This document shows positions 38,434-63,388 of a DNA stretch of 64,000 nucleotides, one piece after another. The translations under genes were made by a program, and so were the position numbers. Origin of the DNA: Trypanosoma brucei (lineage: Eukaryota); contig CP000066.1 of the NCBI GenBank assembly GCA_000002445.1, forward strand, positions 576,001 to 640,000, read 5' to 3'. Numbering within the stretch: position 1 is the stretch's first letter; each line of letters begins with the position of its first letter. The notes below the pieces were generated by a model that was not told the origin of the DNA, did not search any database, and worked only from the letters and a program-made list of their open reading frames with translations.

Positions 38434-39702
<1,269 letters not shown>

Positions 39703-46434: not shown

Positions 46435-46815
46435 ATGCCACCAAAGAAGAGCAGCAATGCCAAAGCCGGCAAATCCGAAGCTGTCAGCGAAGTGAGCAAA
46501 ATTAATATGGATTATGTGCAATATGAACTTCCATCACCTGATATGGCTGTTGTGGAAAAATATATTGAAACGGCCAAAGCAAAAGCTCGCGCCTCATCTG
46601 CGCAACGAAGGCGGGAAGGCCGAAAGAGTTGTTGGAGGGCGGCGTCACCAAACATGTCACTTTGCAAAAAAATTCGTGGAGTGTTTTGTCCAAATATCTT
46701 TCAAACTCTGAAAGGACCTGTGAGGGATTTTGTGTTGGGATTTGTCGTTACTTTCTTCGTCATGTATGTATTTTTTGTGGCGTTGTATTTCGAAAAGGCG
46801 CCTTCCAAGCGATAG
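46435..46815 (+). CDS. Small tail-anchored membrane protein, 126 aa (hypothetical)
   Basis: ATG ORF on the plus strand with a basic cytosolic N-terminus and a single C-terminal transmembrane helix (FVLGFVVTFFVMYVFFVALYF). Confidence 0.35.
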   Translation: MPPKKSSNAKAGKSEAVSEVSKINMDYVQYELPSPDMAVVEKYIETAKAKARASSAQRRREGRKSCWRAASPNMSLCKKIRGVFCPNIFQTLKGPVRDFVLGFVVTFFVMYVFFVALYFEKAPSKR

Positions 46816-47856
46816 GCGGTAAAATAGATCTCAAAAACAAAAGAAAGAAAGAAAAAAAGAGGGACTGAAGAAATGAAGATGAAGATGAGAGAAATGAGTG
46901 AAGAAGTTACGAGGGGAGGGAGAGAAAGAAAAAGAAAAAGGGAGGGAAGGAGGGAAAGAAATAATTTCAAAATAAAACAAAAAAAAAGGGAAGTGACCAC
47001 AAATAGACGGCAACGCAAACGTTTTACGGTGTCGTATAATTTGGTAACCATCTTTAATGAAAAGTGTCTTCATTAGGCGAGGGACACCGTTCGTTTTTTG
47101 TTTTCTTTATATATACATATATATATATATTTATTTATTTATTTATTTATATTTATATATCCTCTCTCTCTCTCTGTGTGTTCCTCTTCCTTTCCCTATC
47201 CCTTTCTCTCTAATTCGCTAAATCTTCATTTATCTTCTTTCCATCCCCTCCCTTTCCACATCCTTTGATTTGTTTTGGAGGATTTTCGCACATCTTGTCG
47301 AGTTTCTACCGATTATTGTGGTGGTGAATTCTCGAATGCATCAAATGGTACAAATATTTCTTTCTGTTGCTTTTGTGTTCTCCCCTCTTTTTTTCTTTTA
47401 GGCGTTGTTATTACCGCTACGGTTGGTATTTTTGTACTTTCTTCGCATTCTTTTGGCATGTGTTGTCTTTGTATTTATTTAAATCTTGTTCTTGTTGTCG
47501 TTTTGCCTTCATACTCTTACAGTTCTAAACAGAAACAAACAAAAAAAATACCTTTACATCACTTTCCTTTACTTCCCTTTTACTTCATTTCTTTCTTTCG
47601 GCTTTCCTCTACCCATCTGCTGTTTGATTTATTTATTTATTGGTGCTTATGCGTCACGTAAATGTGCACATGAATAAATAAATAAATGAATGAATTGTTC
47701 TTTGCTTTATTAGTTCAAGGGAGAAAAAATAAATAAATAATAAATAGTAGTAACAGCATCACCAACAGTAGCGGCATAACAAAGAAAATTTCAAAAAAAA
47801 AGAAATAGAGGTGTGAGTTTATTTGCATCATTTATAAATATTAATATCAAATATAA

Positions 47857-48054
47857 ATGCCTGAGACGCCACAGCGAAATGGATTCAAGCGTCCAAGTCT
47901 TGCAGCTAAATTATTCGGTGATGCGGATGTCGTTTATTCGAGAGAAACAACATCTCGACTAACGGATTTTGCGGGAACATTTTTAGTCGGATTTTTCGCG
48001 GTTTACTTCACAATTGCGGGATATTTACTTTATCGTGAGGCAGCGCTCTCGTAA
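47857..48054 (+). CDS. Possible micro-protein, 65 aa, single TM (hypothetical)
   Basis: ATG ORF with a C-terminal transmembrane helix (FLVGFFAVYFTIAGYLLY), isolated in a 2-kb low-complexity intergenic stretch. Confidence 0.25.
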   Translation: MPETPQRNGFKRPSLAAKLFGDADVVYSRETTSRLTDFAGTFLVGFFAVYFTIAGYLLYREAALS

Positions 48055-49139
48055 AAAATAAAAAATAATATAATAATAATAAATAAATAAATAAATAAAG
48101 GAGAAGAAGAGAAAAATAAAATAAAATAAAACGTGTCATGGCGATGTTGTTGGATATTATTATTATTACTATTTATTCCAACAATGAAGATGCACCCATA
48201 ACGATCAGTTGAAGGGAAGGAAAGTGTGAAAAATCAATCATTACACTACCTATTTAGACATAGGTTTGGAGGGGAGAGATCTTTTTTTAAAAAAAACAAA
48301 AAAAAAATCTCCCCGGGTCCCTTTTGTGTTCTTCCTTTTATACGTGCGGTGTGTTGCGCTGAGAACTCACTGAGAAGTGCGTGACTGCGTATTTAAAAAT
48401 AAAAATAAAAAAAACACCGTCACCTTCCCTCGGTATTTAGTTAATCATTATATTGCCATACCTGTTTTTATTTTATTTTATTTACTTACTCACTTTGATC
48501 ACAATGTAAGTTCTCGGGCCGGTGCCGTTTTTTTTTTGCAATTTTTGGTGTTATGATCTTCCATTCGTCCCTCTTTTTTATCTCCTTTTTTTTTCCTTTT
48601 TTTTTCCACTGCTTTCTCCGCCTACACACTTTTAAAAATGAAATAAAAATTGTGCAGCATTTTCGCGCAGAAAGTCAATGTGCTCCCTTTATAAAAGCTA
48701 AGAGAATGGGGGAGTGTTGCGTACGCTCATGCGTTTTTGTGAGGGTTAATGAGTTTTCATCCTTTCAAAACAAAAACACAAAAGGGAGAAAATAACAGGG
48801 ACAAAGGGGGGGAAAAAAGTAGCAATGTTTTGTTTATTGATAATCCGCTAATTTATCTTAACTGCGTTACGGAATATATGATATATATTTGTGTGTGTAC
48901 GCGTGCATGTGAAATATCCAACACTCATTGCGTCATTTTGAAATTTATACCTTCTTTCTTTTTTGTTTTCCTTAAAATAATTCCGCTCCGCTTGGTTATT
49001 GCTCTGAAAGCTCAAGCGGCGCAGCGGGGGGGCGACTTTCCGTTGTTGTTGCTGTTATTATTATTATTATTATTGCTATTGTTGTGTGTTGTTCTTTTTT
49101 TTTAAAAATAAATAAATAAATAAAAGGAAACAGCATTGT

Positions 49140-49898
49140 ATGCTCCGGTGTATACAATGTAATGCGGCGGTCTACCGAATTGTTCAGCCGGAAAACGAGG
49201 TGGTTGAGAAGTGTGGGACATGCGGTAGGCGGTGTGATAGGTATTATGAATTCTCTAACTGTCAAAAGTGGATAAGCATCACGTTGCTTGAGAAACCTGC
49301 ATGGATTCATGTGTTATTTAACAAAAAAGATATCCGCGCGACATTATTTTGCACAGCCCTCCTGTCACGACTTATTGAAGCGTACGTCGTGCGAACGAGT
49401 TTGGTGTATGGCGCCTTACGCATGCTTCGGTCTAAGGGACCGGTTTCTAACGTAAGTTCGGTTGCGACACTTCAGCTTTTCCGGAATGTGAATCCCAAAA
49501 TAGAACCGCTGATGGCGTATCAGGACACTTTGCCCAATATATTTATTTGTGCTTGTGGAGAATATTTGCTTTGCCTTTTGGTCACTGTTATATTTGCGCT
49601 TCATTCGTGGCGTCGTGGTGGCTCGGCTTTATGGGATGTTGTACTCACATGGATGACATGTGTTAATCTTGCCTATTCAGCGAAGTTGTGTTTCGTAGTG
49701 TTCCTTATTTGGCGCATTCCCATCGCATTAGTATCCCTGGTGGATCTTATCAGTCTCCTTTGGGCTGCTCGCGGTTTCAGTCTTGTGGAAAATAGATATC
49801 CACCATTATTTACATCTGTTGTTGTGCTGATTTGTACGGCAGCCACACGATATCTCTTCCGTAGTGTTACGCAGTGGAGTCCACAACTTCTGGTGTGA
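49140..49898 (+). CDS. ARV1: Arv1-like protein (ARV1 homology domain: zinc ribbon plus TMs)
   Basis: N-terminal CIQCNAAV...VEKCGTCGRRCDRYYEF (CxxC..CxxC zinc ribbon), then LLEKPAWIHVLFN, then several transmembrane helices. This matches the Arv1 layout. Confidence 0.6.
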   Translation: MLRCIQCNAAVYRIVQPENEVVEKCGTCGRRCDRYYEFSNCQKWISITLLEKPAWIHVLFNKKDIRATLFCTALLSRLIEAYVVRTSLVYGALRMLRSKGPVSNVSSVATLQLFRNVNPKIEPLMAYQDTLPNIFICACGEYLLCLLVTVIFALHSWRRGGSALWDVVLTWMTCVNLAYSAKLCFVVFLIWRIPIALVSLVDLISLLWAARGFSLVENRYPPLFTSVVVLICTAATRYLFRSVTQWSPQLLV

Positions 49899-50647
49899 TC
49901 GAAATGAATGTGAATGTCTCTTTTTCCCATTGTTCTCGCCCTTTTGTAATCATATTTATATATTTTTTCTTGTTTTTTTTTGTATTCTTCCGTCCTCGGT
50001 CCGGTCGGTTACCACTGTAAATGTAACCTACAACTTTCCTTTCCTTTCCTTTCTGCTTTGGTTTGGTTTGGTTTGGCTTGGTTGCACCGAAAGCACTTTT
50101 CTACTTCTCCATCGCCGCAATAATTGTTTTTTGTGGTGTTTCCCGTTCATTCGGTATCAGCATCAGATGGGAACTTTGTCGCTGCTTCTTTTCTTTGTTG
50201 TGTACCTTCCTCTTCTCCACTATTAATTGCGGTGCCCTCTGATTTATTTGCTTCGTCGTGTATATGCTGATGTATGTATATATATATATATAGAAATATA
50301 TAAATATACATGTGTGTATATGTATATATTGGCCCTTTTTGTTTCAATTTATTTCTTCGTCGTCTTTTCATGTTTCGTTATTGTGCAAGTAGAAACACCC
50401 ACAGGTGTCTGACACTTAGGCATAACAGTGTAAAAAGGTGGGGATTAGTTACGGGTGGAAGAAGAGGAGGAAGTTGAGGAAAAGATAGCAACGAAACAAA
50501 AGCTAAAGCTAAAGCAAAAAAAAAAAAGAAGAGAAAACGATAGAAGGGAGAGTAAAAAAACGGAAAAAAAACGGGAAAAAGTTAAGAGAACAATCATAGG
50601 GCAATAAAATAAGGCCAGATTTTCGCACAGGTGATAAACAGGAAACA

Positions 50648-53539
50648 ATGGATGCGAAACTTGTGTTCTGTGCGCACTCGCTCAAGTTACCAACGCTGAG
50701 CATTCCCCCAGCTCTGTCAGTAGATAATGAAACCATCAACTTCAGATGTCCGGAACCTCTTGCAGAAGCTGGTTTCCCCGTTCCAAACGCATCATTTACT
50801 GCTGACGTGATGATGGAGCAACCGCAATCCCGCTCCATTTACCAGCGGGTGTTCGCAACAGCTGCACGGGATTTCGAAGGGCGTAAAAATCTGGTAGTTT
50901 TCAGCTACGGCGTGCGTTCCACACCGAAACGGCAGCTTATGTTTGGTTCGGAATCGGGTAGCGGTTATGCTGCGAAGATCATTGGCGATGTTGTGGATGT
51001 TGGTGCCACCAAAGGCATCTTCGCCATCTCTGCGTATGGTGTTGGTTCCTCAGAGCATCTCACCGACTTCACTGATGAGAATAACGAAATGGGAGTAATT
51101 GTAGAATCGGTGAAGGAGGGCCCGCGTGTGCGTATGGTTGGGCGTGTTCGTGTAACGTCATCGGAGGATGTGCGTTCCGTTTTTAACACAGTTACGAAGA
51201 ACTATCAAAAACATTTCGAGTCAGTACTCCGCGAGAGGCAACCAACAGCTGAGCTTGAAGCCCTTCCGCCATATATGCCTGAGTCAATGATTCTTCAGCT
51301 CTACCGTTATGATGATGAGGAAGCATTCAGCGAGTATGTGGAAGCGAACTCCATGACGTTTGTTGCACTGGGAGACTCGGAACGGCCTGTTCTTTGTGGA
51401 ATTGAAGAAGAAACTCAGCAGGAGTATGAAAAGACACAGAAAGTCCTTGCGTCAGCAGTAGGAATTATCTCCAGTATTCGCTGTAATCGTCTGCGCATTC
51501 CATTCGGCAAGTCGAAATTAAGTCAGCTCCTTCGCCGTGCATACAATGCCGAGAAGGGCAACCCCAACAACGGCTACAATGAGCCAACATCAACCGTTTT
51601 TATTATTCATGCCTTTACAGACGCTGTTTGGGCAGAGGAGTCATACCACTGCCTTTTACTCTCGCGACGAGTTAGCAGCGTTGTTGGCACGAGCAGCATC
51701 GGTTCCATTACGCGCGACCTCAGTGTCGATAAGTGGCGTTTGGATCAAGATATTATGGAGTTGCGTGATGAGCTTCAAATTGCGCGCACAGTGTATGACT
51801 ACAGGCCCTGTATATATGACCAACCGAAGCCAGTTCAGAATATCAGAGAGGAGGAACAGAAACGCATTAGCGCCATTGTTTCAAAACGGGAGGAAGCCCG
51901 TGAAAGGCAGCTGAGTTTGGTCCGCGAGCAAGCCAAGCAGGATGCTGATAAAATCATTAAGGATCTCGAAGCTCGGACGGGGACGACGCTCTCGGCGCTG
52001 GAGGCCTCCCTCGAGGCGAAAATGAAGGAAAACTCGGCGCTTCATGCGGACAGGGAAAAACGAATTCATGAATATGAGCAAACCTTAGAAAAGATTCGCA
52101 AAAAGAAGCAGGAGGAGGAATCCGCGTGCGAGAAGCTACGTGAAGAGATGCTCCAGCTTGAACAGGAACTTAGTGTTCGGCAAAACGCAATTGAGAGCAA
52201 GCAGAAGAATTTGGAAATGATAAAGCTGGATAAGTCAAAGGGCCGTGACGCGGTTATGCGTGAGCGACAGTCCATACAAGCGATGCGCAAAACGGTGCTA
52301 GAGGAGAGGCGGCGTCAGCGCAAACAGTGGATTAACCAAATAAAAGAAATCAACGCTAAGGTTATTGATCAGGTCCGGATGCTGGCCGAGGAACGGAAGA
52401 AAAACGGTGAGCAGCCCACAGCAAATGAAGAGGCTGCTGAAAAGGCAATCATCGCGGATGTGCGAACTATCGAGGAATACTTGCCAAAACTCATTTCACT
52501 TGAGGACGTTCCCGTGAATTTGGAGGAGACGGAAGCCATTCGCCGACAATTTGCGGATGTGTTTGCGGAAGAGAAAAAGACATATCTTGCGCGGATCGAA
52601 GAGGAGAAGGCGCGGAGAGAAAAGCTGGAGCGTGGCCTCGAAGTATATCGTCAGCGCCTACTCGACACATATCAAGCTAAGAAAAAGGAGAAGGTGCATG
52701 ACGCCATAACAAAAGAGCAACACCTCAGCTCATTGGTGGATCAAGTCATTACGTACTTGCGCAACGGTGTCCGAATGAGCAAAATTTCAAGCAAAGGAAA
52801 TATTCGCCGGCGGTTCTACTTCCTCTCCGAAGATTACAAACGCATTCACTCCTGTGAGATTGATAACCAAGGCGCGCCAATCAGCCGGAAGAAACCACCC
52901 GTCACCATATGGCTGAAAGATATAAAGAAAGTGGTTATTGGCGTATACACATCTTCATTTACAAACTTTAGCAGTGAGGCTCAGTTGGCGAAGACGCGTC
53001 AGGAGGCCGTTTCTGACAGCGGAACTTACCGTCAAGACCCAACGCAAAACATCACCTCAGCCAACCTTGGTTTGCATAATTACAGATCCTTTGCACTTCT
53101 GCTTCGTGGAGGTAAATCTCTGGAAGTTGTTTGCGAAACGGACAGCGACTGCGAGGCTTGGCTTGTTGCGCTCAAGCGACTCCTTCAAATAAAATCTCCT
53201 ATTGAGCGAATTCTTGAGGAAAGGATGAACGGCAATACGACGAAAGAATCACCAAGTAACACACATGAAGGTGCTGTTGATATAAAATGGGGTGGTTCAC
53301 TTGATATACACAACATGCGCGGGTTTGTTTCCCTGTCGTCTGAAGAAGCCACGCTGTGTAGTGAAAACCACATCCCGCCCGCTTTGTTCCTTCGGATGAA
53401 GCAAGAAATGGCAGAAAAGGCGGAAAGGAATACCATCACGATTTATGATGTCCGTGTTTCTTCCGGTCTTGACTTATTCCGCTCAGGGAAGCTTTATGAT
53501 TTCTTATGCGAAAAGAGAGTCATACCGCTCCCGTACTGA
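50648..53539 (+). CDS. Large coiled-coil protein with a C-terminal PH-like domain, 963 aa (hypothetical)
   Basis: ATG verified. A long central charged coiled coil (residues about 380-640) is followed by YLRNGVRMSKISSKGNIRRRFYFLSEDYKRIHSCE...CEAWLVALKRLL, which has PH-domain topology. Confidence 0.5.
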   Translation: MDAKLVFCAHSLKLPTLSIPPALSVDNETINFRCPEPLAEAGFPVPNASFTADVMMEQPQSRSIYQRVFATAARDFEGRKNLVVFSYGVRSTPKRQLMFGSESGSGYAAKIIGDVVDVGATKGIFAISAYGVGSSEHLTDFTDENNEMGVIVESVKEGPRVRMVGRVRVTSSEDVRSVFNTVTKNYQKHFESVLRERQPTAELEALPPYMPESMILQLYRYDDEEAFSEYVEANSMTFVALGDSERPVLCGIEEETQQEYEKTQKVLASAVGIISSIRCNRLRIPFGKSKLSQLLRRAYNAEKGNPNNGYNEPTSTVFIIHAFTDAVWAEESYHCLLLSRRVSSVVGTSSIGSITRDLSVDKWRLDQDIMELRDELQIARTVYDYRPCIYDQPKPVQNIREEEQKRISAIVSKREEARERQLSLVREQAKQDADKIIKDLEARTGTTLSALEASLEAKMKENSALHADREKRIHEYEQTLEKIRKKKQEEESACEKLREEMLQLEQELSVRQNAIESKQKNLEMIKLDKSKGRDAVMRERQSIQAMRKTVLEERRRQRKQWINQIKEINAKVIDQVRMLAEERKKNGEQPTANEEAAEKAIIADVRTIEEYLPKLISLEDVPVNLEETEAIRRQFADVFAEEKKTYLARIEEEKARREKLERGLEVYRQRLLDTYQAKKKEKVHDAITKEQHLSSLVDQVITYLRNGVRMSKISSKGNIRRRFYFLSEDYKRIHSCEIDNQGAPISRKKPPVTIWLKDIKKVVIGVYTSSFTNFSSEAQLAKTRQEAVSDSGTYRQDPTQNITSANLGLHNYRSFALLLRGGKSLEVVCETDSDCEAWLVALKRLLQIKSPIERILEERMNGNTTKESPSNTHEGAVDIKWGGSLDIHNMRGFVSLSSEEATLCSENHIPPALFLRMKQEMAEKAERNTITIYDVRVSSGLDLFRSGKLYDFLCEKRVIPLPY

Positions 53540-55197
53540 GCGGTGAAGGAAATATGAGAGTGTTATCAGGAGCCAACAGAATTTGTTTCTGAACTTTACC
53601 TTCCCTTCCTCTTTATTATTTCCCCTTATTTCAGTGATGATTCTGCTGCCGTCGCATTGTCCCACCCGCTACGTTCAATTATTTAGTAAATAGTTGGGAA
53701 GGGTGTCCACGTTTTTTTTTCAAGTTCTTTTTTTTTTTTTGGAACTTCCGGTCATATCCGAAATGGGCAGGGAGGTAGAAAGAGGAGGAAAGAGCAATAT
53801 AAACTTGGTTCCAGTCTGCGTTGCGTGAAATCCCCACGTTTCGAAACTGAAATAATATGTTCGAATGTTATGCTTAATAGTAACAATCACAATAATAATA
53901 ATAATACGTCTCACATCATCTTTCTTTCTTTCTTTATATTTAAATTTTTATTTGACAAAGAAAAAAGGATTATGGGTTTATAGTTAGGAAAAAATGACTA
54001 TATTTCCCCAATAACTGAGTTAAGGCGCATACCGCAGCAACATGCGAAACCCAAGTTTCAGTACCACTCAAATATACATTCATTAGTTAAAAATTTTTTT
54101 GCTTGCGGAATGAAGCTCGTTAGCTCACGCAAAAGGTGATGAAGTGGAACCGGCAATTTTTACAAAAAAAAAGCGTTATTGCTTTAATGACACAAGGGTG
54201 GGTATTCTTCGTAAAAACATAACGGCGTGATATGGGGTCAAATATGCGGACAGCCGCATATTTTAATTTTCGCACATGAAAAAAGCTCACCCGCAGCCAC
54301 ATCTCACTAGGGAAAGTTAGGAAGGGTAAAGTGCTCCCGCAAACGATGTGACGGAAGGATCAGAAATGATGCATTTGAAGATGGGGGCTGCCGGATTTTA
54401 TTATTTTGGGCCGGGGGAATACTCTTGCAAATGTGTGGAACGGGGGAAAAGGCAACACGAGGGGAGGGTTTTTTTTTAAAAAAAAGTGTCCGGGGAACAG
54501 GAATTTAATACGCTGTGCGGAGCATGGTGAAATTGGCAGAGGATGGTTTCATGGGAAGGACAGAGGTAGAATTCGGGCAAAACTGCTTGGAAGAAACTAA
54601 GCGAGGGTGCAATTTGTTAGAAATATCTAAATAAAGCGAACGTGGCGGATTGGGGGAAAGGGCGAGAGGAAACGCAAGAAACGCGAGCGCTTCTGTCAAA
54701 TACGGAAATACAGGAAATTGGAAGCAGGGCCAAGTTATCCGGTCAGATGCATAAAGACGCAACTCCCTCGTAATAATCCTCTGGAGAATACCATTAGGAA
54801 GTTTTATTTTAAAAAAAAAAAACTTTCGAAGTTCAACGCAAGATTCTTCGGAAGTACCGCAAAACTAAAACCGTGCCTACACTCGCTCCAGTCGACAAGA
54901 CGCTTTTAGCTAGTTTCTCAGTTGAGGTTGCACCTTTTGCTCCCAAGCATACTTGTTGTTTTGCTTTATCTGAAGAGATATAAAAAAAATACCACGCATC
55001 CGCAAAATGCGTCTGAACCAAACCGATCTTTTATGTATCGTATCAACTAGCCGATGAGGTGCGTGAGGAAACTTCCTTCATAGAATTGCTAAAACAACAG
55101 GTGTGTGGGGAGGAAGAAAGTGTTGTATAACAGTTTTGCATCGTTAAGACTCCGTGGGCACGTACCTGAACCAAACGTTAGGATTTAAGGGGTGTGC
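53540..55197. terminator. Convergent strand-switch region: transcription termination zone between the plus-strand unit and the minus-strand surface-gene cluster
   Basis: The last plus gene ends at 53539 and the first minus gene ends at 55198. The region has no ORFs, contains T/A homopolymer runs (54460-54480, 54805-54830) and inverted-repeat copy A. Confidence 0.55.
54156..54386 (-). repeat. Inverted-repeat copy A (about 231 bp), partner of 63160-63388
   Basis: The reverse complement of this segment aligns base-for-base with 63160-63388 with about 18 mismatches or indels in about 230 positions. It contains the hairpin aaatatgcggacagccgcatattt. In element orientation it ends with a T9 run. 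Confidence 0.85.
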
Positions 55198-56385
55198 TTA
55201 AAAAACTAGAAAAAATAACTTAAGTGGTTCTGGGAGGCGGTTTACACCGCTGGAGGTGAATAATCTTCGTATGGAAGTCACGCATTCGCTCCCATTCCAT
55301 TCGCACCGCGGCTTCTGTTCCAGGCAAGTTACCTTGCTTTCGAAACCAGAGCATCCTCTTTTAGAGGACGTAGTCGGTTTTTTCCCCTCCAGTCCATTAT
55401 CAGTATTATTGGATTCGTCCTTTTCTTTTTCGCTTGAATTGTTTGGGACAGGTCGTGCCCCCCTCTTCAATTCGTTTACTTGGTTTTGAATCTTCACGAG
55501 GTACTCCTCGGCTTGGATCAGTTCTTCCATTCTGGTTGCAGCTTCTCGCAACTTTAGATACCACGAAATTGTTGGCGTGCTTTCATTGACGTGTCTTGGG
55601 AGATATATTACGCATCGGCCATGGCCAACCTCGGTGCTTCCGTCGCAGCCGTTGTGTAAGTCGGCGCCGCGCGCGCCCAGTAAGTTTCGTGAATCCGATG
55701 AAGAGTCCGGTATTTCCTGGAGTTCGCCAAGGAAGAAAGCGACCGCCTCTGAGAGCGCTTGAAGCGGCCGAGTTTTCTCTCTCCTCACGTTGCTGCACTT
55801 GGGATGGAGCAAATTCCAGTGATCAGGAGAATTTCTCTGGGGTACCCATGATCCTACATAAGTGGTGTTGCATCCATCACAGCAAACCGCGCTGCCGCCT
55901 TTGCCTTCGCTGGATGCTGCACAGATGCACAGTAAATCAAGCGCCAGCGCATCACCCGCTTTATTTCCGGGCTGGCCGCCAGCTCTTCCACATAACTCCG
56001 ACCTCCCACCCCGCGTGCGCCCGACCACCACCTGTTTATGACCGTTGCCGTACAGCGCTTCTGTTAAATTTTTTCTGATAGCTGATAAGGCCCGGCCGTT
56101 CCATAAATCACCGTTCTCTTCCTTATATGTTTTCGCTTTTAGTTTAAGTTCCTCAAGTTTTTTAACATTTTCTTCGGGCGCTTCGGCCTCTCCCTGAATT
56201 TCGTCTTCTGTTTCCTTAACCTTGCGCTCCAGATCCTCCGGTGTTTGTGTATCCAGCGCAAGATTTACAAAACCACACAGCGCTTCGAATTCCTTTCCAT
56301 TCACAATGTTGTTTTCATGCGCCTTTGAATTGACGCAGATATGTTGCAGCGTTACCACCGCAACAAACACGATGTAACTCCTCAT
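55198..56385 (-). CDS. Cys-rich secreted/surface glycoprotein, VSG/ESAG-like family member 1, about 396 aa
   Basis: Signal peptide MRSYIVFVAVVTLQHIC. Shares the family motifs EFEALCGFVNL and ALALDLLCICA, several N-x-S/T sites and a short hydrophobic C-terminus (LKLFFLVF). The track start at 56553 is TTG; an alternative ATG exists at 56487. Confidence 0.6.
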   Translation of the reverse strand: MRSYIVFVAVVTLQHICVNSKAHENNIVNGKEFEALCGFVNLALDTQTPEDLERKVKETEDEIQGEAEAPEENVKKLEELKLKAKTYKEENGDLWNGRALSAIRKNLTEALYGNGHKQVVVGRTRGGRSELCGRAGGQPGNKAGDALALDLLCICAASSEGKGGSAVCCDGCNTTYVGSWVPQRNSPDHWNLLHPKCSNVRREKTRPLQALSEAVAFFLGELQEIPDSSSDSRNLLGARGADLHNGCDGSTEVGHGRCVIYLPRHVNESTPTISWYLKLREAATRMEELIQAEEYLVKIQNQVNELKRGARPVPNNSSEKEKDESNNTDNGLEGKKPTTSSKRGCSGFESKVTCLEQKPRCEWNGSECVTSIRRLFTSSGVNRLPEPLKLFFLVF

Positions 56386-56831
56386 CCCCAACAATTTCGT
56401 ATATGCCTTTTTGTTCACAATGATGTCACCTGTCTCCCCAGAAAATTCGAAAGATGACGTACCAAACTTAGCGAAAAATACACACATACCGCGTAGGTGA
56501 GGATCATGACGAATAAAAAGCTCTCTCGGCTTCTCTCCCCAGCACACACACAAAAAATTGTTACATAACGTTTCAGCTCCCTTGAGAAGTCATAGCATCA
56601 CAAGAGAGCTCCACATGGAAGCCACCGCTGCTATCTCGATAGCAGCATCAAAAAGCCAGACACAAATTCCAAAAAAAGAAGGTGATACCACCTTAATTAT
56701 TCATCCAAAGAAAAACGAATTCATATGCGATTGTTAATAAACCCACATATTGTTAAAATGAAACACACGTACACATAAAAGCAAAATATAAAAAAGATAC
56801 TGCACGACAATGTTGGTAGCGTACCAGTAAA

Positions 56832-58202
56832 CTAAGACATACAAAAAAGGGATAGAATCATTAATGTAAAAATATCAGTTGTTATATCTATATAGTTGAA
56901 TCCATTATTATTTACTTCAGCATTGCCACCTTCACCATCATCCTGACCTCGGTTACTTCGCCATAGCTCAGCATCACCACCTAGCTTCACCTCAAGAAAT
57001 ATTTCCTCTGCCTCATGTTGGTATTCTTCCAATTCGTGAAGATGACTGTCAGACTCTTTGGCATACTTTGCCATTTCTTGTAGTTGCTCGGTGGCGTTAG
57101 TAAGATGGTTGTACCAAGGGATCCCACCATTTTCAAGTGTGTAGTTGTAGCTGACACATGTGAATCCAGCAGTATGACCCGTGCAGGTGCGATTCTCGTT
57201 GTTTAATGTTTTCACATAACCAAGAATACCCTTCACCTGATACTTATCCTGTTCCATTTCCACTAACGCATCGAACTGAGCTAGCGCACTCTTTAAGGTT
57301 TTCACATTAGATGCAATATTCTTGTACACGCAAGCTTTACTAATCACATCCCATGCCTCAGTATGGTTGTATTTTATATTTTCAGGCTTGCAGGTATTAT
57401 AGTTGCTCGGACAATACTCAGCCATCATAGTCCAACTACCATTTTTAGGTCTCCTTATTGCATCCTTACAAGGACAGTCATATCCACTGTATATGTTTTC
57501 ACTACTTGAGCCAGTATCCATTTGGTATACGCGTGTCTGTCGCTCTTCCTTCTTTTTTTCTATAGCCTCTCCCACACATAGGCAAAAGAAGTCATTAATT
57601 AGTGTCTTTCCAACTAGCTTGTCTCCGTAAGAACCACAGCTTGCGTCCGCATTGTAGACACTATTGAACAACAGTGATTTGTTTCCCCTCATGGCTTCCT
57701 CCAGAGTTTTATTCTCATTTCTTGCCACATCCACAGCGTCGCCATACACAGCCCTCAGCATATTTTCTTCAGCAGAGCGACTTGCATTCAAGGCTTTTGT
57801 CCTATTCACCTCTATCTGCTCCTTAAGCTTTTTCGCCTTCTCAAATAGTTTCTTCATCTCCTGATATGCTGTCGTGCTGTTAGATGAATTGTTCGAGCCC
57901 TTATTGCCACCAGCAGCTTCTGCCTCACTGACCATTTCCTCCAAATTCTTCAGAATCTCTCCTTCCTTCTCACGATTCTTAAAGGAGGGTTGCGGGGCCT
58001 CTGCTTGCGTGATTCGGTAAATCTTGCACAGTGTTTCGAACTCACCAACGTTGTGATGTTTTTCATCTGCATCGACGGTCTCCATAATCCTATCCCAGTC
58101 AAGCATATCAGTTCTCCATCGATATTCTGCCATATCACCCTGAGAGGAAGGAGATAAAACAACCACAAGCATCCCAACGGCAAACACTGTTTCGTGTCTC
58201 AT
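56832..58202 (-). CDS. Cys-rich surface glycoprotein, family member 2, about 457 aa, GPI-signal-like C-terminus
   Basis: Signal peptide MRHETVFAVGMLVVVLSPSSQG directly after a polyY/AG acceptor. Motifs EFETLCKIY, AVYGDA and LINDFFCLCVG. Many N-glycosylation sites. Hydrophobic C-terminus IFTLMILSLFCMS. The track start at 58289 is TTG. Confidence 0.6.
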   Translation of the reverse strand: MRHETVFAVGMLVVVLSPSSQGDMAEYRWRTDMLDWDRIMETVDADEKHHNVGEFETLCKIYRITQAEAPQPSFKNREKEGEILKNLEEMVSEAEAAGGNKGSNNSSNSTTAYQEMKKLFEKAKKLKEQIEVNRTKALNASRSAEENMLRAVYGDAVDVARNENKTLEEAMRGNKSLLFNSVYNADASCGSYGDKLVGKTLINDFFCLCVGEAIEKKKEERQTRVYQMDTGSSSENIYSGYDCPCKDAIRRPKNGSWTMMAEYCPSNYNTCKPENIKYNHTEAWDVISKACVYKNIASNVKTLKSALAQFDALVEMEQDKYQVKGILGYVKTLNNENRTCTGHTAGFTCVSYNYTLENGGIPWYNHLTNATEQLQEMAKYAKESDSHLHELEEYQHEAEEIFLEVKLGGDAELWRSNRGQDDGEGGNAEVNNNGFNYIDITTDIFTLMILSLFCMS

Positions 58203-59418
58203 CGTGATTTTGCCTCTACAATCATCAGTCAAAAGGAGGGAAAAAAATCTTATTATCACGTTCATTACTGTTATTGACAAACACAACAAACATGGAGATA
58301 CATCAATGTATCGAAGTTAACAAGTGCCCGACACAAGTCAACCGAAACAGTATCCAACAAAACAGGAAGCACATCCCAATACATACAGTTAGATGAGTGT
58401 ATTCTTTCAAGCTGGACATCAACGTTAGACTTCCTCACAACTGCGGTATTCTCCTTTTCGTTACACCATTTCTCCTAATTTCCTCCCCAAAAAATCTGCT
58501 TTATTTGATACCATGCCAGTATATCCAATTTTCCAACTGAGTTCCTCTTGCACTCCCTTGATTTCCTCAATAATAAGCTGATCCATTCTCTTAATGAAGA
58601 CTTGCACCTTTATGCCATGTTTTTTTCCACATCCTTCATTGGATCTGTTAGTTTAAGTTGCCATTTTATGGTCTTATTTGCTAATAGATTACGTGCTTAA
58701 TTCGCACGTGTTACCTTTATCCAATGCACACAACTCTGCTGCTGAACTCCACTCAGCATATCCTCCTCCACTCATACGCATACTCACAAAACTTTTTGTT
58801 TACCTATTCTTGACCATGCACAGTTTCCTGCCTTCCATTTTCTTAAGCCATACACTAGAAAAGATAAAAGTTGTATTTTCAAAACACCATCTCGGATACT
58901 TATGCTCACTATTGAGGCCCTTGATTATATGGTGACATGATGGAATATTATGGTATTTTCCAACACAAAAAAGTCCCAGAATAATTAGTGACCTTCCCTG
59001 TCAGCACCCTCATTTAGATCGTTCACCTCATTAACCAGCCACCATCCTTATAGATACGCTGGTAGAAAAAAACGGAAGTTATGCACGTTATCGCCCATCC
59101 CCTCAACGAATTCTATCCACCCTTACCCCACACAGGTTTTTTGCATAAGAAACGACAAACAAGAAACAAAACTACTCTTGTGAGCACAAAACCAAATATT
59201 TCTTCCTTACTTCACATGCAGAAAGAATTAACACACCCCACTACCCTACAACACAAATGGTGGAGGGACAGCCATAGTCACTACCACTCACAATTAAGAT
59301 AACCCAGACAGGGAAACTCCAGATAAAGAAATGCCCAGTTACGAGAAAGATCCTAGCGCGCACACGTAAAGATATTTCATTTATTATGGAACAGGGAGAA
59401 TATTAATGAAAGTACTTT

Positions 59419-60393
59419 TCAGATGGTAAAATTAGTACTCTTCATATTATCAATGTTATTCGTGCTGAACTGCAGCGAAGTGAAATTCCTATGGATATCG
59501 TTGAAGTAGCTCTGCAGTAAAGTGATATTGGCCATCATATCCAGGAGTTCAGGAGGTGCTTTGCCAGAAGTAAAAGGTTCGATAAGAGGGTCAAATATCT
59601 CCTCCACGTAAATTTGGAGCTGAAAAAAAGCGGGGCCGTTCTCACGCCAGTTTATTAAGCCAGTTGAATTCTTCACCGCACCACCCTTATATAAGTTGTC
59701 ACGCGGTAAGTTCAAGCATTTGCTCACAGATCCAGATCCAGTTAAAACATCAATTTGAAGGCAACCTCCCCTGTATTTTTGGAGAGTGATCTCGTTCACA
59801 CCGGTTAATAAAGGACATGTCTGATCAACACATACGACTGGGAACCCCCTGACACCTTTCAGCGCTCCTTTCTTGCACTCGGGTCCTTCATCATTGCTCA
59901 CGGCTTTAACGTCATCCCACACAGTTCTTGCGATCTCAGCAATAGCTGTGTAATATTTATTTGATGTTATGAGGGCACCAGGTATTGCATTCCTCACTGC
60001 CCTCACGCTTTCATTAACCTCAGCAAATAATCCACCTGCCTTAGCAACAAGATCTCCCATTGCATTTCCATAAGATATAAGGTTTTCCAATTTATCATTT
60101 TCCTCTACCATTACACTGCTAATAACACTCAAATATATAACACTTTCGCCTGTTTTCCCTTCCATGTCATCCAGCATACGAGACGCATTTGCGTATACCT
60201 CCTCATTCAAAAAAAGCTTCCTCTCGCCATCTGTATATAGTTTGTTTAAGGCATCTGAAAGACATTTGAGGTAACATACGGATTGGTTTAAGTTTGTGCC
60301 CTTGTCATCATCTATTGATGTGCAATAACTTTCTTCTGCCACTCCAAAGGTCACAAAAAAAAAAACAACCAATCCTACAATCTTAATTTTCAT
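59419..60393 (-). CDS. Secreted Cys-containing glycoprotein of a different family (about 325 aa), embedded in the surface-gene cluster
   Basis: Signal peptide MKIKIVGLVVFFFVTFGVAEE directly after the polyY/AG (tttttttcattcctcttgtcaaatgtaattgtttag). Multiple N-x-S/T sites, no C-terminal hydrophobic tail, and none of the DLLCLC motifs. The track's upstream start at 60684 is TTG. Confidence 0.5.
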   Translation of the reverse strand: MKIKIVGLVVFFFVTFGVAEESYCTSIDDDKGTNLNQSVCYLKCLSDALNKLYTDGERKLFLNEEVYANASRMLDDMEGKTGESVIYLSVISSVMVEENDKLENLISYGNAMGDLVAKAGGLFAEVNESVRAVRNAIPGALITSNKYYTAIAEIARTVWDDVKAVSNDEGPECKKGALKGVRGFPVVCVDQTCPLLTGVNEITLQKYRGGCLQIDVLTGSGSVSKCLNLPRDNLYKGGAVKNSTGLINWRENGPAFFQLQIYVEEIFDPLIEPFTSGKAPPELLDMMANITLLQSYFNDIHRNFTSLQFSTNNIDNMKSTNFTI

Positions 60394-61732
60394 TACTAAA
60401 CAATTACATTTGACAAGAGGAATGAAAAAAACACATACACATCGCCACACAAAACCAATGAGTGTCACAAATGTATAATCCCAATACCCACAGTGTTTCA
60501 TACACATAACATTGAACCACATAATAAATATTGCTACAAGAGACGTTAAACCCAACAGAATATGATGCTCCTTCTTCATTGTCAATCCTCCTTCATCCGT
60601 CACATCGTCATCATCCTCACTTCCATTGCATTTCCTCCCACTCTCCTTGAAATATTTACACACAATCAGGTTTTGAGATAGCAACTCTTTCAGTTTATTT
60701 TCATGCCCAGTAAAGGAAACAAAGATCAGCTCTACATCACCGTACCGTTTGGTGATACTCCCATATCATTTTGTGACTAAATTGTAGCTGTTGATAAGCT
60801 AGGGCACTATATCACTGAACATTAGGGTGACAACACCATCCCTATGGTAGTTAACGAAACCTCCGGTAGTTCCCACTATGAAAGTTCCAACTCCTGCAAC
60901 CGCAGCACCTTACGTACCCATGATCCAGCAATTGATGGTTGCTATCGGTTGTAAATTCAATTGGTTGATTAGCTGTGTAATTATTTGTGCAACCAATATA
61001 CCATCATTTGGCATATCTTCAGTGAAAGAGAAATTACACATGTTAGGAGATTCCGCTACTCTGTGCTTATGTTAATTACTTTAACATTCATTTCCTGAAG
61101 AGGCGGCTTTCTCCTTCACAAGACAACAACCATTTGCTTTAGCATTTGTTTGTCTAAAAACCATTACCAGATCCTTCAACACTTGTCCAATTGACAATGA
61201 TGCATTCACAACATGATTAGACACTCTTATTTCGTTTAAATAACTTGCGTCTATTACCTGTCCAGGTTCATCTGTATTCTTCATTATATTCCTCAACCTC
61301 TACGTTATCGCTTTCCATGCCCTTCCCTTTACATCATAGTGATATCACCACATCAGAAACCCATTCAACATTTACATAGCCTCCGATTGTCATCTTCAAA
61401 ACACTAACACTCACAGTCCCCAAGGCACAACTGAAGCTAAATACCGTTTGTGTCCCTTGACGGACACCTCAACTCAGTGCCAGGGTCTAGCACCCTGCTC
61501 AGGTAAGAGAAAAAAAGCGACAGCATCCTACTCCATTAGGATTAAGTTCAGACGGAAAATCCAAGGCTTCAATTCACAATGGAGCACACACCGTAAACGT
61601 TACAGGACAAGCATTATTCTTGGAAATAAAATAGGCACAGTTGCTGTGCCGTCAACTATACCAAAAAGAAATCCACTATTATTACCATTAGTGTTAGTAT
61701 TGGCGCAGTGGAGCCACATATGATGTTGTGTG

Positions 61733-62845
61733 TCACAGCAGAAAGAGCAAAAACACCACCAACGGTGAAATAGCCTGAGCGACATTTTTCGGCCGAAGTG
61801 GCTGGTGTGAGGGTTGGAGTGAGTGATTGGTTCTTGTTTCACCAAGAGGAACCAAGTCAGGGTCGGTGGTGCTTTGTGTAGCTGCACTTGTGTTGGGTGC
61901 CATTGGTGTATTGCCATCAGTTGCCGTTGAGGGAGATTGCTTGGGACGTTGCTCGGGAGATGGATCCTCCTCTGGTTGTACCTTTATTTCCGGGGGTGAC
62001 TGACGGGGTGGTGAGCCTCTTGTTGGAATAGGCGGTTCCCTCTGCTCCTGCGGTGGCATTTTGTTGACTTTTTGTGCATTTTCCTTTTTAGGGGTTTTCA
62101 ACCTTTTGACAAGGTCTTCTAGTTGTGTCAACCACTCAATTTTGACTTGATTTGCTCCTCCGCCTTCCATTTTATAGAAAACACATGGGGCGTTATTTGC
62201 ACTGCCAGACCCTCCACAAGATTTGGTGATCGGCTCCCGCCCGTGTCCGAAGCGCTTAGTTTCCCTCTCTGTTGTTTTCTCGGTCATTTCATTCAGTTTT
62301 TTCCTAAGATTTTGGACGGTTGTGGTTAATGATTCAAAACCGATGCTTTCTATATTAATTTGCTCGGTGCACTTTTGCTTGATTTTCCCCCAACTTTCTT
62401 CGGCTCTGTCCTTGTTTCCCCAACTTTCGGCAGGATCATACCACGCATTGGCTTCGTAGCACAGATTTTTTTGGTGGTCACCGTTTCCGCTGGGTCTGCA
62501 AAGACACAGAAGGTCCAGCGCTAACGCTTTGCCTCCAAATCCGCCTCCGAATATGCTGGTGTAGCCACAGTCAGCTTCTCGTTTTTCTTTTCCAGTCCAA
62601 TTAAGGGAGCCATCGCTGTCACTACCGTACAAGACTTTCATCGCGGAACTGTCGAAGTCGTTTGCGACCTCGGCTGTGAGTCTCTCTTTCTCCACCCACT
62701 CGTGTATTCTCAGTGTCAAATTTAAGAAACTGCAGAGCACGTCAAACTCCCTTTGGTTCAACGTATTTTCTATCTCTGCGGCCGGCACGCTCAACCCTGC
62801 CGCCTTCCAAACCACGCACAGCATAGTCACTAATATTTTCCACAT
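61733..62845 (-). CDS. Cys-rich GPI-anchored-type surface glycoprotein, family member 3, about 370 aa, with a Pro/Ser/Thr/Gln-rich stalk
   Basis: Signal peptide MWKILVTMLCVVWKAAG after the polyY/AG. Motifs EFDVLCSFLNL, VLYGSD and ALALDLLCLC. A C-terminal low-complexity PPQEQREPPIPTRGSPPRQSPPE...STATDGNTPMAPNTSAATQSTT stalk is followed by the hydrophobic tail AISPLVVFLLFLL, a classic GPI-signal shape. Confidence 0.65.
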   Translation of the reverse strand: MWKILVTMLCVVWKAAGLSVPAAEIENTLNQREFDVLCSFLNLTLRIHEWVEKERLTAEVANDFDSSAMKVLYGSDSDGSLNWTGKEKREADCGYTSIFGGGFGGKALALDLLCLCRPSGNGDHQKNLCYEANAWYDPAESWGNKDRAEESWGKIKQKCTEQINIESIGFESLTTTVQNLRKKLNEMTEKTTERETKRFGHGREPITKSCGGSGSANNAPCVFYKMEGGGANQVKIEWLTQLEDLVKRLKTPKKENAQKVNKMPPQEQREPPIPTRGSPPRQSPPEIKVQPEEDPSPEQRPKQSPSTATDGNTPMAPNTSAATQSTTDPDLVPLGETRTNHSLQPSHQPLRPKNVAQAISPLVVFLLFLL

Positions 62846-63159
62846 CGCCTTCCTAAGCATCAATAAAAAAAATGAAACAGATAGTAGAGAAATCTCCAAT
62901 GAGAGGGGCAGGGACACTTTTAAAGGGTGAAAGTTTAACCCTATTAGGTATTTCATGAAACATCAGCAGAGGTCAACCAGAGAAGATATGAAAGCTCATA
63001 TCTCCATAGACTACATTTATTTTTTTAAAAGTCTCTTTACCATCCCAAGACTAGTTTGGCACTTAAGTTTACTTCTGGTTTTGATACTTGCTGCCATTGT
63101 CTTAACCTATCTGCCTTAAAGTTTTGATAACATCAAGGGTTTCCGCTCTTTTTTGGGGG

Positions 63160-63388
63160 CCTCCATCTTCAAATGCATCATTTCTGATCCTTCCGTCACA
63201 TTGTTTGCGGGAGCACTTTACCCTTCCTAACTTTCCCTAGTGAGATGTGGCTGCAGGAGAGCTTTTTCATATGTGGAAATAAAACCACGCGGCTATCCGC
63301 ATATTTGACCCCATATCACGCCGTTATGTTTTTACGAAGAATACCCACCCTTGTGCCATTAAAGCAATAACGTTTTTTTTGTAAAAAT
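63160..63388 (+). repeat. Inverted-repeat copy B (about 229 bp), partner of 54156-54386
   Basis: Direct alignment with the reverse complement of copy A. It ends ...cgttttttttgtaaaaat and contains the palindromic core atgcggatagccgcgt. Confidence 0.85.

What the first reader, a model, noticed from the sequence alone, without database searches (positions are those of the whole stretch)
55198..62956. Cluster of three paralogous VSG/ESAG-like Cys-rich glycoproteins plus one unrelated secreted glycoprotein
The proteins at 55198-56385, 56832-58202 and 61733-62845 share a signal peptide, an N-terminal E-F-(E/D)-x-L-C motif, a (V/L)YG(S/N/D) motif, and a central A-L-A-L-D-L-L-C-(L/I)-C motif (LINDFFCLCVG in the second). 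Each ends in a hydrophobic tail shaped like a GPI signal. The 61733 gene also carries an about 90-aa Pro/Ser/Thr/Gln-rich mucin-like stalk before the tail. The layout resembles VSG N-terminal domains: VSG221 starts AAEKGFKQAFWQPLCQVSEEL, and this family starts AAEIENTLNQREFDVLCSFLNL. I cannot place it in a named family (ESAG2-like, VSG-related, PAG or ISG). The 59419-60393 gene lies inside the cluster, is also secreted and N-glycosylated, and has none of these motifs. A paralogous surface-protein cluster at the end of a transcription unit is typical of stage-regulated surface coats.
Basis: partly seen in the sequence, partly recalled or inferred. Interest (0 to 1): 0.6.

Follow-up and report, generated by a model that had tools for sequence, protein, structure and literature searches.

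The report
Known T. brucei VSG/ESAG gene island
This is the already annotated chromosome-internal "VSG/ESAG island" of Trypanosoma brucei chromosome 3 (Tb927.3.2500-2540): three old, diverged relatives of the class-B variant surface glycoprotein plus an ESAG1 gene and an ESAG11 pseudogene, so it is real but ordinary.

Summary
Four intact ORFs lie at the stated coordinates, all on the minus strand. Three share the quoted motifs, and the fourth does not.

The window is T. brucei brucei TREU927 chromosome 3, and all four proteins are exact GenBank entries (AAZ10285-AAZ10288).
- All three "paralogues" match Pfam VSG_B (E 4e-45, 1e-24, 2e-27), but each belongs to a different named group.
  - Tb927.3.2500 is an atypical VSG-like protein with a 4-Cys C-terminal module.
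  - The second gene is an ESAG2-family member (GRESAG2), 65-79% identical to named ESAG2 proteins.
  - Tb927.3.2540 is annotated "VSG-related" (VR).
- The "unrelated" gene is ESAG1 (Pfam E 8e-115).
- An AlphaFold model of Tb927.3.2500 (pLDDT 84) matches only class-B VSG structures. The comparison with VSG221 therefore used the wrong class.

The island ends a minus-strand transcription unit at a convergent strand switch. It has no 70-bp repeats and is syntenic in T. b. gambiense. Published arrays show Tb927.3.2540 mRNA is bloodstream- and stumpy-enriched.

Two details were new to me. A 230-bp inverted repeat brackets the island. The GRESAG2 5' part has been replaced between subspecies.

Novelty: already known. 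Interest is low.

The parts
55198..56385 (-). Tb927.3.2500. A 395-aa atypical VSG-like protein: class-B VSG N-terminal domain, one 4-Cys C-terminal module, and a short degenerate hydrophobic tail.
   Evidence: Exact match to AAZ10285.1/Tb927.3.2500. Pfam VSG_B E 4.4e-45. 98% identical to 'VSG 1125.4916' and 74% to 'VSG 746'. The AF2 model has pLDDT 83.8, and Foldseek top hits are mVSG1954, VSG11, VSG615 and VSG3. phmmer against PDB chain 8b3w gives 1.3e-10.
56832..58202 (-). ESAG2-family gene outside an expression site (GRESAG2), 456 aa. The ID Tb927.3.2510 is inferred from gene order.
   Evidence: Exact match to AAZ10286.1 'ESAG protein, putative'. 65-79% identical over full length to proteins named ESAG2/GRESAG2. 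Pfam VSG_B E 1e-24. 13-aa hydrophobic C-terminal tail.
59419..60393 (-). ESAG1-family gene (GRESAG1), 324 aa, Tb927.3.2520. It has a signal-type N-terminus and no C-terminal hydrophobic tail.
   Evidence: Exact match to AAZ10287.1. Pfam ESAG1 PF03238 E 8.4e-115. Named ESAG1/Tb927.3.2520 in PMC9763322. No profile similarity to VSG_B.
60520..61371 (-). ESAG11 pseudogene. It is 5'-truncated and has several in-frame stops. It is presumably Tb927.3.2530, but that ID was not verified.
   Evidence: tblastn of T. b. gambiense ESAG11 (P0168) gives 47% identity over residues 63-367, E 7e-81, with stop codons in the alignment.
61733..62956 (-). Tb927.3.2540, a VSG-related (VR) protein. The annotated product is 407 aa. 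The likely true start is at 62845 (370 aa), which places the signal peptide at the N-terminus. Layout: class-B VSG domain, a roughly 90-aa P/S/T/Q stalk, then a hydrophobic tail.
   Evidence: The 407-aa ORF equals AAZ10288.1 'VSG-related, putative'. The Tbg orthologue is 98% identical. Pfam VSG_B E 2e-27. Gene ID and product name are from PMC2753553 and PMC2771046.
53540..55197 (.). Convergent strand-switch region between the plus-strand unit (last gene Tb927.3.2490, ending 53539) and the minus-strand island.
   Evidence: ORF layout. Same arrangement in T. b. gambiense. No tRNA genes and no Rfam hit.
54159..54388 (.). Left arm of a 230-bp inverted repeat that brackets the island.
   Evidence: the repeat finder pairs I1/I2. 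93% identity to the right arm, and only two copies in the window. Both arms are present in T. b. gambiense.
63159..63387 (.). Right arm of the 230-bp inverted repeat, about 200 bp upstream of the annotated start of Tb927.3.2540.

Best explanation
The region is the annotated chromosome-internal VSG/ESAG island of T. brucei brucei TREU927 chromosome 3.

Gene order. In the direction of transcription (minus strand) it reads:
- VR gene Tb927.3.2540
- ESAG11 pseudogene
- ESAG1-family gene Tb927.3.2520
- ESAG2-family gene
- atypical VSG-like gene Tb927.3.2500

The island then ends at a convergent strand-switch region.

Origin of the genes. Three genes are invariant, non-switching derivatives of the class-B VSG N-terminal domain. 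They come from three long-separated branches (VR, ESAG2, atypical VSG). ESAG1 is a separate family, reported as T. brucei-specific.

How it most likely works (inferred unless marked shown):
- The genes sit in a core-chromosome region next to housekeeping genes (shown). By analogy with other core units I infer they are transcribed by RNA polymerase II as the tail of a polycistronic unit, not from a telomeric expression site.
- mRNA levels are then set post-transcriptionally. This gives bloodstream and stumpy enrichment (published for Tb927.3.2540).
- The products enter the ER through an N-terminal signal peptide and are N-glycosylated.
- The ESAG2-like and VR proteins probably receive a GPI anchor. 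The VR protein would then present an elongated helical-bundle domain on a mucin-like stalk at the parasite surface.
- Tb927.3.2500 has a VSG-type C-terminal module but a weak anchor signal.
- By analogy with other VSG-derived proteins (transferrin receptor, SRA, TgsGP), these are most likely low-abundance invariant host-interaction or ligand-binding proteins hidden in the VSG coat. No ligand is known.
For: Identity and annotation: exact matches to AAZ10285-10288 of TREU927 chromosome 3.

Family assignment:
- Pfam VSG_B for three genes and ESAG1 for one.
- The ESAG2 family by 65-79% full-length identity.
- VR by the source's own name.
- The ESAG11 pseudogene.

Fold: AF2 model with pLDDT 83.8. 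Its 22 best PDB matches are all VSG3, VSG11, VSG615 or mVSG1954.

Not archive VSGs:
- No tandem or 70-bp repeats.
- Neighbours are conserved housekeeping genes.
- The locus lies 549-570 kb into the 1.47-Mb T. b. gambiense chromosome.
- The ORFs are intact, with 98% aa identity and dN/dS about 0.46 between subspecies.

Literature:
- 'VSG/ESAG islands' are described in PMC2854126.
- Tb927.3.2540 is 3.3-fold higher in bloodstream than procyclic forms and is stumpy-enriched.
- VR proteins and ESAG2 are found in the bloodstream surface proteome, and ESAG2 localises to the cell-body membrane (PMC4587319).
Against: - No function or ligand is known for any of the four proteins. The receptor-like role is analogy only.
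- Signal peptides and GPI signals were judged by hydropathy only. The tail of Tb927.3.2500 is short and charged.
- The tagged ESAG1 copy of the active expression site did not localise to the surface, so 'surface coat' does not apply to the whole cluster.
- dN/dS rests on only about 12 substitutions per gene.
- Protein-level expression of these particular genes was not found in the supplements I could search.
Confidence: 0.9

Rival explanations
1. The island is a relic of a bloodstream expression site, or of a subtelomeric ES-like array, that was transposed into the chromosome core. On this view its genes are decaying passengers rather than functional invariant genes.
For: - The gene content is ES-like: ESAG2, ESAG11 (as a pseudogene), ESAG1 and a terminal VSG-like gene.
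- The ESAG11-ESAG1 adjacency matches the ESAG2-ESAG11-ESAG1 order seen at two other loci.
- The ESAG1 copy is frameshifted in T. b. gambiense.
- A 230-bp inverted repeat brackets the segment.
- PMC3605285 suggests secondary transposition from an ES for an ESAG6/7 pair at another strand-switch region.
Against: - The order is permuted relative to an ES. ESAG2 lies after ESAG1, and a VR gene lies in front.
- There are no 70-bp repeats.
- ESAG3-8 are absent.
- Four ORFs are intact in TREU927, and three are intact and 78-98% identical in T. b. gambiense.
- mRNA of Tb927.3.2540 is regulated.

An ES-derived origin and present-day function are not mutually exclusive.
Confidence: 0.25
2. The VSG_B genes are silent members of the VSG archive. 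On this view they serve as donors for gene conversion or mosaic VSG formation rather than being expressed in place.
For: - Orthologues of g1 and g4 are deposited under the name 'variant surface glycoprotein' in strain VSG catalogues: VSG 1125.4916, VSG 746, VSG 1713 and VSG 1125.1387.
- g1 retains a VSG-like 4-Cys C-terminal module.
Against: - No 70-bp repeats.
- Core location, syntenic between subspecies.
- g4 has a P/S/T/Q stalk instead of a VSG C-terminal domain.
- The Pfam VSG C-terminal family was not matched at E<=1.
- Near-identity between subspecies contrasts with the rapid turnover reported for archive VSGs (PMC2854126).
- In-place mRNA is detected.
Confidence: 0.05
3. This is the first reader's reading: a novel, unnamed family of three paralogues forming a stage-specific surface coat.
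For: Shared motifs and overall layout. One member is stage-regulated.
Against: - Every member hits a named family.
- Pairwise identity is only 21-28%, and g2-g4 is not detectable by BLAST.
- The array signal for Tb927.3.2540 is modest (2297). That does not suggest coat-level abundance.
Confidence: 0.02

Closest known systems
VSG-related (VR) genes of T. brucei (Marcello & Barry 2007 class, as used in PMC2771046, PMC2854126 and PMC3605285)
   Same: - b-type VSG N-terminal domain
- Chromosome-internal position at a strand-switch region
- No 70-bp repeats
- Bloodstream-enriched mRNA

Tb927.3.2540 is itself annotated as VR.
   Different: Nothing for Tb927.3.2540. Tb927.3.2500 is annotated only as hypothetical / 'T. 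brucei spp.-specific'. It keeps a VSG-like 4-Cys C-terminal module, so it is closer to an 'atypical VSG' than to the stalked VR type.
ESAG2 / GRESAG2
   Same: - 65-79% full-length identity
- Same length
- VSG_B domain
- Hydrophobic GPI-type tail

Expression-site ESAG2 is GPI-anchored on the cell-body membrane (PMC4587319, PMC11298655).
   Different: - It lies in the chromosome core, not in a telomeric expression site.
- It lies downstream of ESAG1 rather than upstream of ESAG11-ESAG1.
- The 5' two-thirds differs strongly from the syntenic T. b. gambiense copy (dS about 0.6 against 0.02 in the neighbours).
ESAG1 (Pfam PF03238)
   Same: Full-length match to the family profile (E 8e-115), with an N-terminal hydrophobic signal and 7 sequons.
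   Different: It is a non-ES copy (GRESAG1). The syntenic copy is frameshifted in T. b. gambiense.
Bloodstream VSG expression site (order ESAG2-ESAG11-ESAG1-70 bp repeats-VSG)
   Same: It contains the same gene families and ends in a VSG-like gene.
   Different: - No 70-bp repeats.
- Permuted gene order.
- Not telomeric.
- Embedded in a core polycistronic unit, and presumably RNA polymerase II-transcribed.
Fam1 (Tb927.6.1310), TgsGP, SRA and other invariant VSG-derived proteins
   Same: All are VSG-domain proteins that lost the canonical C-terminal domain and variant role. Fam1 also sits at a strand-switch region and is bloodstream-expressed (PMC3605285).
   Different: These are different branches. 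No sequence-level assignment of the island genes to them was seen. No serum-resistance or receptor function is shown for the island genes.

Membership tests
Class-B (b-type) VSG N-terminal domain superfamily (Pfam PF13206) | Significant match to the family profile above its gathering score | tested here: met
   Scores are 154.9, 87.9 and 96.8 bits against a cut-off of 25 for g1, g2 and g4. g3 gives no match.
Class-B (b-type) VSG N-terminal domain superfamily (Pfam PF13206) | Conserved cysteine framework and the LC / YG / DxLCLC motifs | tested here: met
   Invariant C37, C132, C153, C155 and C168 among the three genes. The same columns are invariant or nearly so in 60 relatives.
Class-B (b-type) VSG N-terminal domain superfamily (Pfam PF13206) | Elongated helical-bundle fold like solved class-B VSGs | tested here: met
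   For g1 only. The AF2 model has pLDDT 83.8. Foldseek E values of 2e-9 to 3.5e-3 go to mVSG1954, VSG11, VSG615 and VSG3, with TM 0.44-0.55 on target length. g2 and g4 were not modelled.
Canonical switchable VSG | Upstream 70-bp repeats | tested here: not met
   No tandem repeats of that kind in 53-64 kb. There is no match to the repeat core with up to 3 mismatches in the whole window. The core sequence was recalled from memory.
Canonical switchable VSG | Subtelomeric or telomeric location | tested here: not met
   The window carries housekeeping genes. The syntenic Tbg locus is at 549-570 kb of 1.47 Mb.
Canonical switchable VSG | Cys-rich C-terminal domain followed by a canonical 17- or 23-aa GPI signal | tested here: inconclusive
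   g1 has a 4-Cys C..C..CxW..C module but a charged, short tail. g2 and g4 have no such domain. The Pfam VSG C-terminal family gave no hit at E<=1. No GPI predictor was available.
ESAG2 | High full-length similarity to expression-site ESAG2 proteins | tested here: met
   65-79% identity at 97-100% coverage to proteins named ESAG2/GRESAG2.
ESAG2 | Location in a telomeric expression site (distinguishes ESAG from GRESAG) | tested here: not met
   Core location. It is therefore a GRESAG2.
ESAG1 (PF03238) | Match to the family profile | tested here: met
   382 bits against a cut-off of 27, covering profile positions 1-227 of 227.
VSG-related (VR) genes | VSG-like domain, chromosome-internal strand-switch location, no 70-bp repeats | tested here: met
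   The definition is as quoted in PMC2771046. g4 is annotated VR.
GPI-anchored surface protein | Cleavable N-terminal signal peptide and C-terminal omega site plus hydrophobic tail | not testable with these tools
   Only hydropathy heuristics were possible. SignalP and PredGPI are not available.

The most novel reading that the evidence does not exclude
The 230-bp inverted repeat (54159-54388 / 63159-63387) that brackets exactly the five-gene island, and is kept in both subspecies, may be functional rather than a rearrangement scar. Two versions are possible:
- It could mediate inversion of the 8.8-kb cassette. That would move the island from the tail of the minus-strand unit to the tail of the plus-strand unit.
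- It could pair in the primary transcript next to a convergent transcription zone. That would feed the nuclear RNAi pathway and tune island expression.
Probability: 0.05. Interest if true: 0.5.

Novelty: already known. Interest (0 to 1): 0.08.

Why it matters
It matters little as a discovery. The genes are annotated, their families are named, and the class of locus (chromosome-internal VSG/ESAG islands at strand-switch regions) is described in the literature.

The biology remains open in one respect. No function is known for VR proteins, GRESAG2 or ESAG1. Invariant VSG-derived surface proteins have repeatedly turned out to be host-ligand receptors or resistance factors. These genes are therefore reasonable but unremarkable candidates for tagging and ligand screens.

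Tried and rejected
- ESAG1 structure: the single-sequence AlphaFold model was unusable (pLDDT 32.9). No fold comparison was made for ESAG1.
- ESAG1 against VSG_B, profile to profile: no relation (probability 0.2%). The ESAG1 profile was very shallow, so a remote fold relationship is not excluded.
- ESAG1 against PDB sequences: no hit.
- TREU927 loci of the paralogues P0012 and P0016, and of g3: not on record in the contig index. Paralogous islands in TREU927 could not be compared, so I used T. b. gambiense loci instead.
- Supplementary tables of the surface-proteome paper: none of the island gene IDs appear.
- tRNA genes, Rfam families, 70-bp repeats and tandem repeats in or near the island: none.
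- The 230-bp inverted repeat is not among the seven long inverted repeats catalogued as siRNA sources (PMC3447711). It has no further copy in the window or in L002/L003. No T. brucei genome database was available to search it genome-wide.
- The idea that the cluster is a straightforward expression-site fragment was rejected because of the gene order and the missing repeats.

Full report
**What is at the coordinates.** Six-frame ORF listing shows four long ORFs between 55.2 and 63.0 kb, all on the minus strand: 55198-56553, 56832-58289, 59419-60684 and 61733-62956. The next gene to the left (50648-53539) is on the plus strand. The four genes are therefore the last genes of a minus-strand unit that meets a plus-strand unit head-on at about 53.5-55.2 kb. 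GC skew flips sign at about 56 kb, consistent with this.

**Identity of the sequence.** Exact-sequence look-ups place the window on T. brucei brucei TREU927 chromosome 3, a 1,653,225-bp contig.
- g1 is AAZ10285.1 / Tb927.3.2500, named 'hypothetical protein'.
- g2 is AAZ10286.1, named 'ESAG protein, putative'.
- g3 is AAZ10287.1, named 'ESAG protein, putative'.
- The plus-strand neighbour is AAZ10284.1, a PH-domain protein.
- The 407-aa version of g4 (61733-62956) is AAZ10288.1, named 'VSG-related, putative'.
- Papers give Tb927.3.2520 as ESAG1 (PMC9763322) and Tb927.3.2540 as 'VSG related, putative' (PMC2753553 and PMC2771046).
- That g2 is Tb927.3.2510 follows from gene order and is an inference.

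**Check of the observation.** The quoted motifs are all there and align in register.
- EFEALC / EFETLC / EFDVLC.
- ALYGNG / AVYGDA / VLYGSD.
- ALALDLLCIC / TLINDFFCLC / ALALDLLCLC.

In an alignment of g1 with 59 relatives from a full HMMER scan of 1.8 billion representatives, the same cysteines are invariant and the YG, R, G and D positions nearly so. That scan gave 142 hits at E<=1e-3. The motifs are therefore the signature of a large family, not chance.

Direct pairwise similarity is low, at 21-28% identity. g1-g4 gives E 2.8e-12 and g1-g2 gives E 2e-4. g2-g4 is no better than shuffled controls. The three genes are old paralogues.

Hydropathy shows N-terminal hydrophobic cores in all four proteins. 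C-terminal hydrophobic tails of 13 residues occur in g2 and g4. g1 has only a short, charge-interrupted tail, and g3 has none. The g4 stalk (residues 263-352) is 54% P+S+T+Q. It is conserved in a 40%-identical paralogue from another chromosome.

**Family assignment.**
- Pfam gives VSG_B (PF13206) for g1 (E 4.4e-45), g2 (1e-24) and g4 (2e-27). It gives ESAG1 (PF03238) for g3 (8.4e-115, full profile length). The other Pfam VSG N-terminal family (PF00913) does not appear at E<=1.
- g2 is 65-79% identical over its whole length to proteins named ESAG2 or GRESAG2.
- g4's only close relatives are its T. b. gambiense orthologue (98%) and a TREU927 VR paralogue (40%).
- g1's close relatives are strain orthologues named 'VSG 1125.4916' (98%) and a Lister-427 paralogue named 'VSG 746' (74%). 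They share its C-terminal CSGFESKVTCLEQKPRCEWNGSEC module and degenerate tail.
- Against PDB sequences, g1 and g4 hit only metacyclic VSG 1954. g2 weakly hits VSG615, and g3 hits nothing.

**Fold.** An AlphaFold2 model of g1 built on the 60-sequence alignment has mean pLDDT 83.8 and long helices at 30-112 and 274-308. Foldseek against the PDB returns mVSG1954, VSG11, VSG615 and VSG3 as the 22 best matches, with E down to 2e-9. ISG65, ISG75, the transferrin receptor and the factor H receptor follow far behind. The match is to the VSG3/VSG11 type, which is class B (Pfam VSG_B). It is not to VSG221, which I know as a class-A VSG.

**A fifth element.** DNA comparison with two other ESAG2 loci of T. 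b. gambiense (L002, L003) shows that window 59900-61286 is homologous to the ESAG11-ESAG1 segment of those loci. tblastn with the ESAG11 protein of L002 aligns residues 63-367 to window 61371-60520 at 47% identity, with several in-frame stops. An ESAG11 pseudogene therefore lies between the VR gene and ESAG1. Its C-terminal end explains the long TTG-initiated extension of the ESAG1 ORF. The other loci have the expression-site order ESAG2-ESAG11-ESAG1. The window has (psi-ESAG11)-ESAG1-ESAG2, so it is not a simple copy of an expression-site segment.

**Context and conservation.**
- The rest of the window encodes conserved housekeeping proteins: Sec1, VPS9, a protein kinase, BRO1 and KBP_C.
- The T. 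b. gambiense DAL972 locus is colinear. It reads: three 219-aa 'T. brucei spp.-specific' tandem genes, VR, a gap, an ESAG2-like gene, a VSG_B gene, then the convergent PH-domain gene. It lies at 549-570 kb of a 1.47-Mb chromosome.
- ESAG1 is frameshifted there and was not called as a gene.
- Sliding identity between the two subspecies is 98-99% across the island. The exception is a block of about 2 kb (window ~57150-59200) at 69-89%. This block covers the 5' two-thirds of the ESAG2-like gene and its upstream region.
- Synonymous divergence is 0.59 in that part, against 0.019 in g1 and g4. The simplest reading is replacement by gene conversion from another ESAG2 copy in one lineage.
- dN/dS is 0.47 for g1, 0.46 for g4 and 0.29 for g2. 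That is compatible with constraint, but the g1 and g4 values rest on few changes.
- There are no tandem repeats, no 70-bp-repeat core, no tRNA genes and no Rfam hits.

**An unreported detail.** A 230-bp inverted repeat, 93% identical, brackets the island: 54159-54388 and 63159-63387. It is non-coding and occurs only twice in the window. Both arms are present in T. b. gambiense. It is not among the seven long inverted repeats surveyed as siRNA sources (PMC3447711). It may be a scar or substrate of an inversion. I could not search it genome-wide.

**What the literature already says.**
- The T. b. gambiense genome paper describes 17 non-telomeric 'VSG/ESAG islands' containing atypical VSGs, VR genes or imported VSGs (PMC2854126).
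- The cell-surface phylome paper derives ESAG2 from b-type variant antigens. It finds no homology for ESAG1 outside T. brucei (PMC3605285).
- Tb927.3.2540 mRNA is 3.3-fold higher in cultured bloodstream than procyclic forms. It belongs to the 'stumpy-enriched' set.
- Surface proteomics found VR proteins and ESAG2 enriched at the bloodstream surface, with ESAG2 on the cell-body membrane. Tagged ESAG1 did not reach the surface (PMC4587319).

**Verdict.** The interpretation 'VSG/ESAG-like' is right in kind. However, the genes are members of named families in an annotated, previously described type of locus. The mechanism I commit to is as follows:
- Transcription, presumably by RNA polymerase II, as the tail of a polycistronic unit.
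- Post-transcriptional stage control.
- ER entry and glycosylation.
- GPI anchoring for at least the ESAG2-like and VR proteins.
- Display or trafficking as low-abundance invariant VSG-fold proteins.

The location, the family assignments and the fold of g1 are shown. Stage regulation of one gene is published. Transcription mode, anchoring and any ligand-binding role are inferred. Novelty is 'already known', and interest is low.

Noticed in passing
window 54159-54388 and 63159-63387: A 230-bp non-coding inverted repeat (93% identical) brackets exactly the five-gene island, with 8.8 kb between the arms. Both arms are conserved in T. b. gambiense. It is not in the published list of long T. brucei inverted repeats.
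   Followed up: partly
window 60520-61371 (-): An ESAG11 pseudogene lies between the VR gene and ESAG1. It is 5'-truncated, has several in-frame stops, and is 47% identical to the T. b. gambiense ESAG11 protein. Its 3' end is in frame with the long TTG ORF of ESAG1.
   Followed up: yes
window ~57150-59200: A block of about 2 kb covers the 5' two-thirds of the ESAG2-like gene and its upstream region. It is only 69-89% identical to the syntenic T. b. gambiense sequence, while the flanks are 98-99% identical. dS is 0.59 against 0.019. This suggests gene conversion from another ESAG2 copy.
   Followed up: partly
L001 12467-13437 (T. b. gambiense, syntenic to window 59419-60393): The ESAG1 copy is frameshifted in T. 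b. gambiense DAL972 and was not called as a gene, but it is intact in TREU927.
   Followed up: partly
window 61733-62956 (-): The GenBank model of Tb927.3.2540 starts at 62956 (407 aa). That puts 37 residues in front of the signal-type hydrophobic core. The Tbg orthologue is annotated from M33 (375 aa), and another deposited entry (ARB50730.1, named only 'variant surface glycoprotein') is 370 aa. The true start is probably 62845 or 62860. The Tb927.3.2500 orthologues are likewise annotated 34 aa longer.
   Followed up: partly
L001 4250-7947 (upstream of the island, beyond the window end): Three tandem 219-aa 'T. brucei spp.-specific' genes (the Tb927.3.2550 array of PMC1855330 and PMC2854126) lie immediately upstream on the same strand. 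The species-specific segment therefore extends past the window.
   Followed up: no
window 38000-50000: A stretch with lower G+C (0.36-0.41) than the rest of the window (0.44-0.51). It has wide gaps between ORFs.
   Followed up: no
window ~9400-11700: Minus-strand genes end at about 9.4 kb and plus-strand genes begin at about 11.7 kb. This is a divergent strand-switch region and a probable transcription start zone.
   Followed up: no
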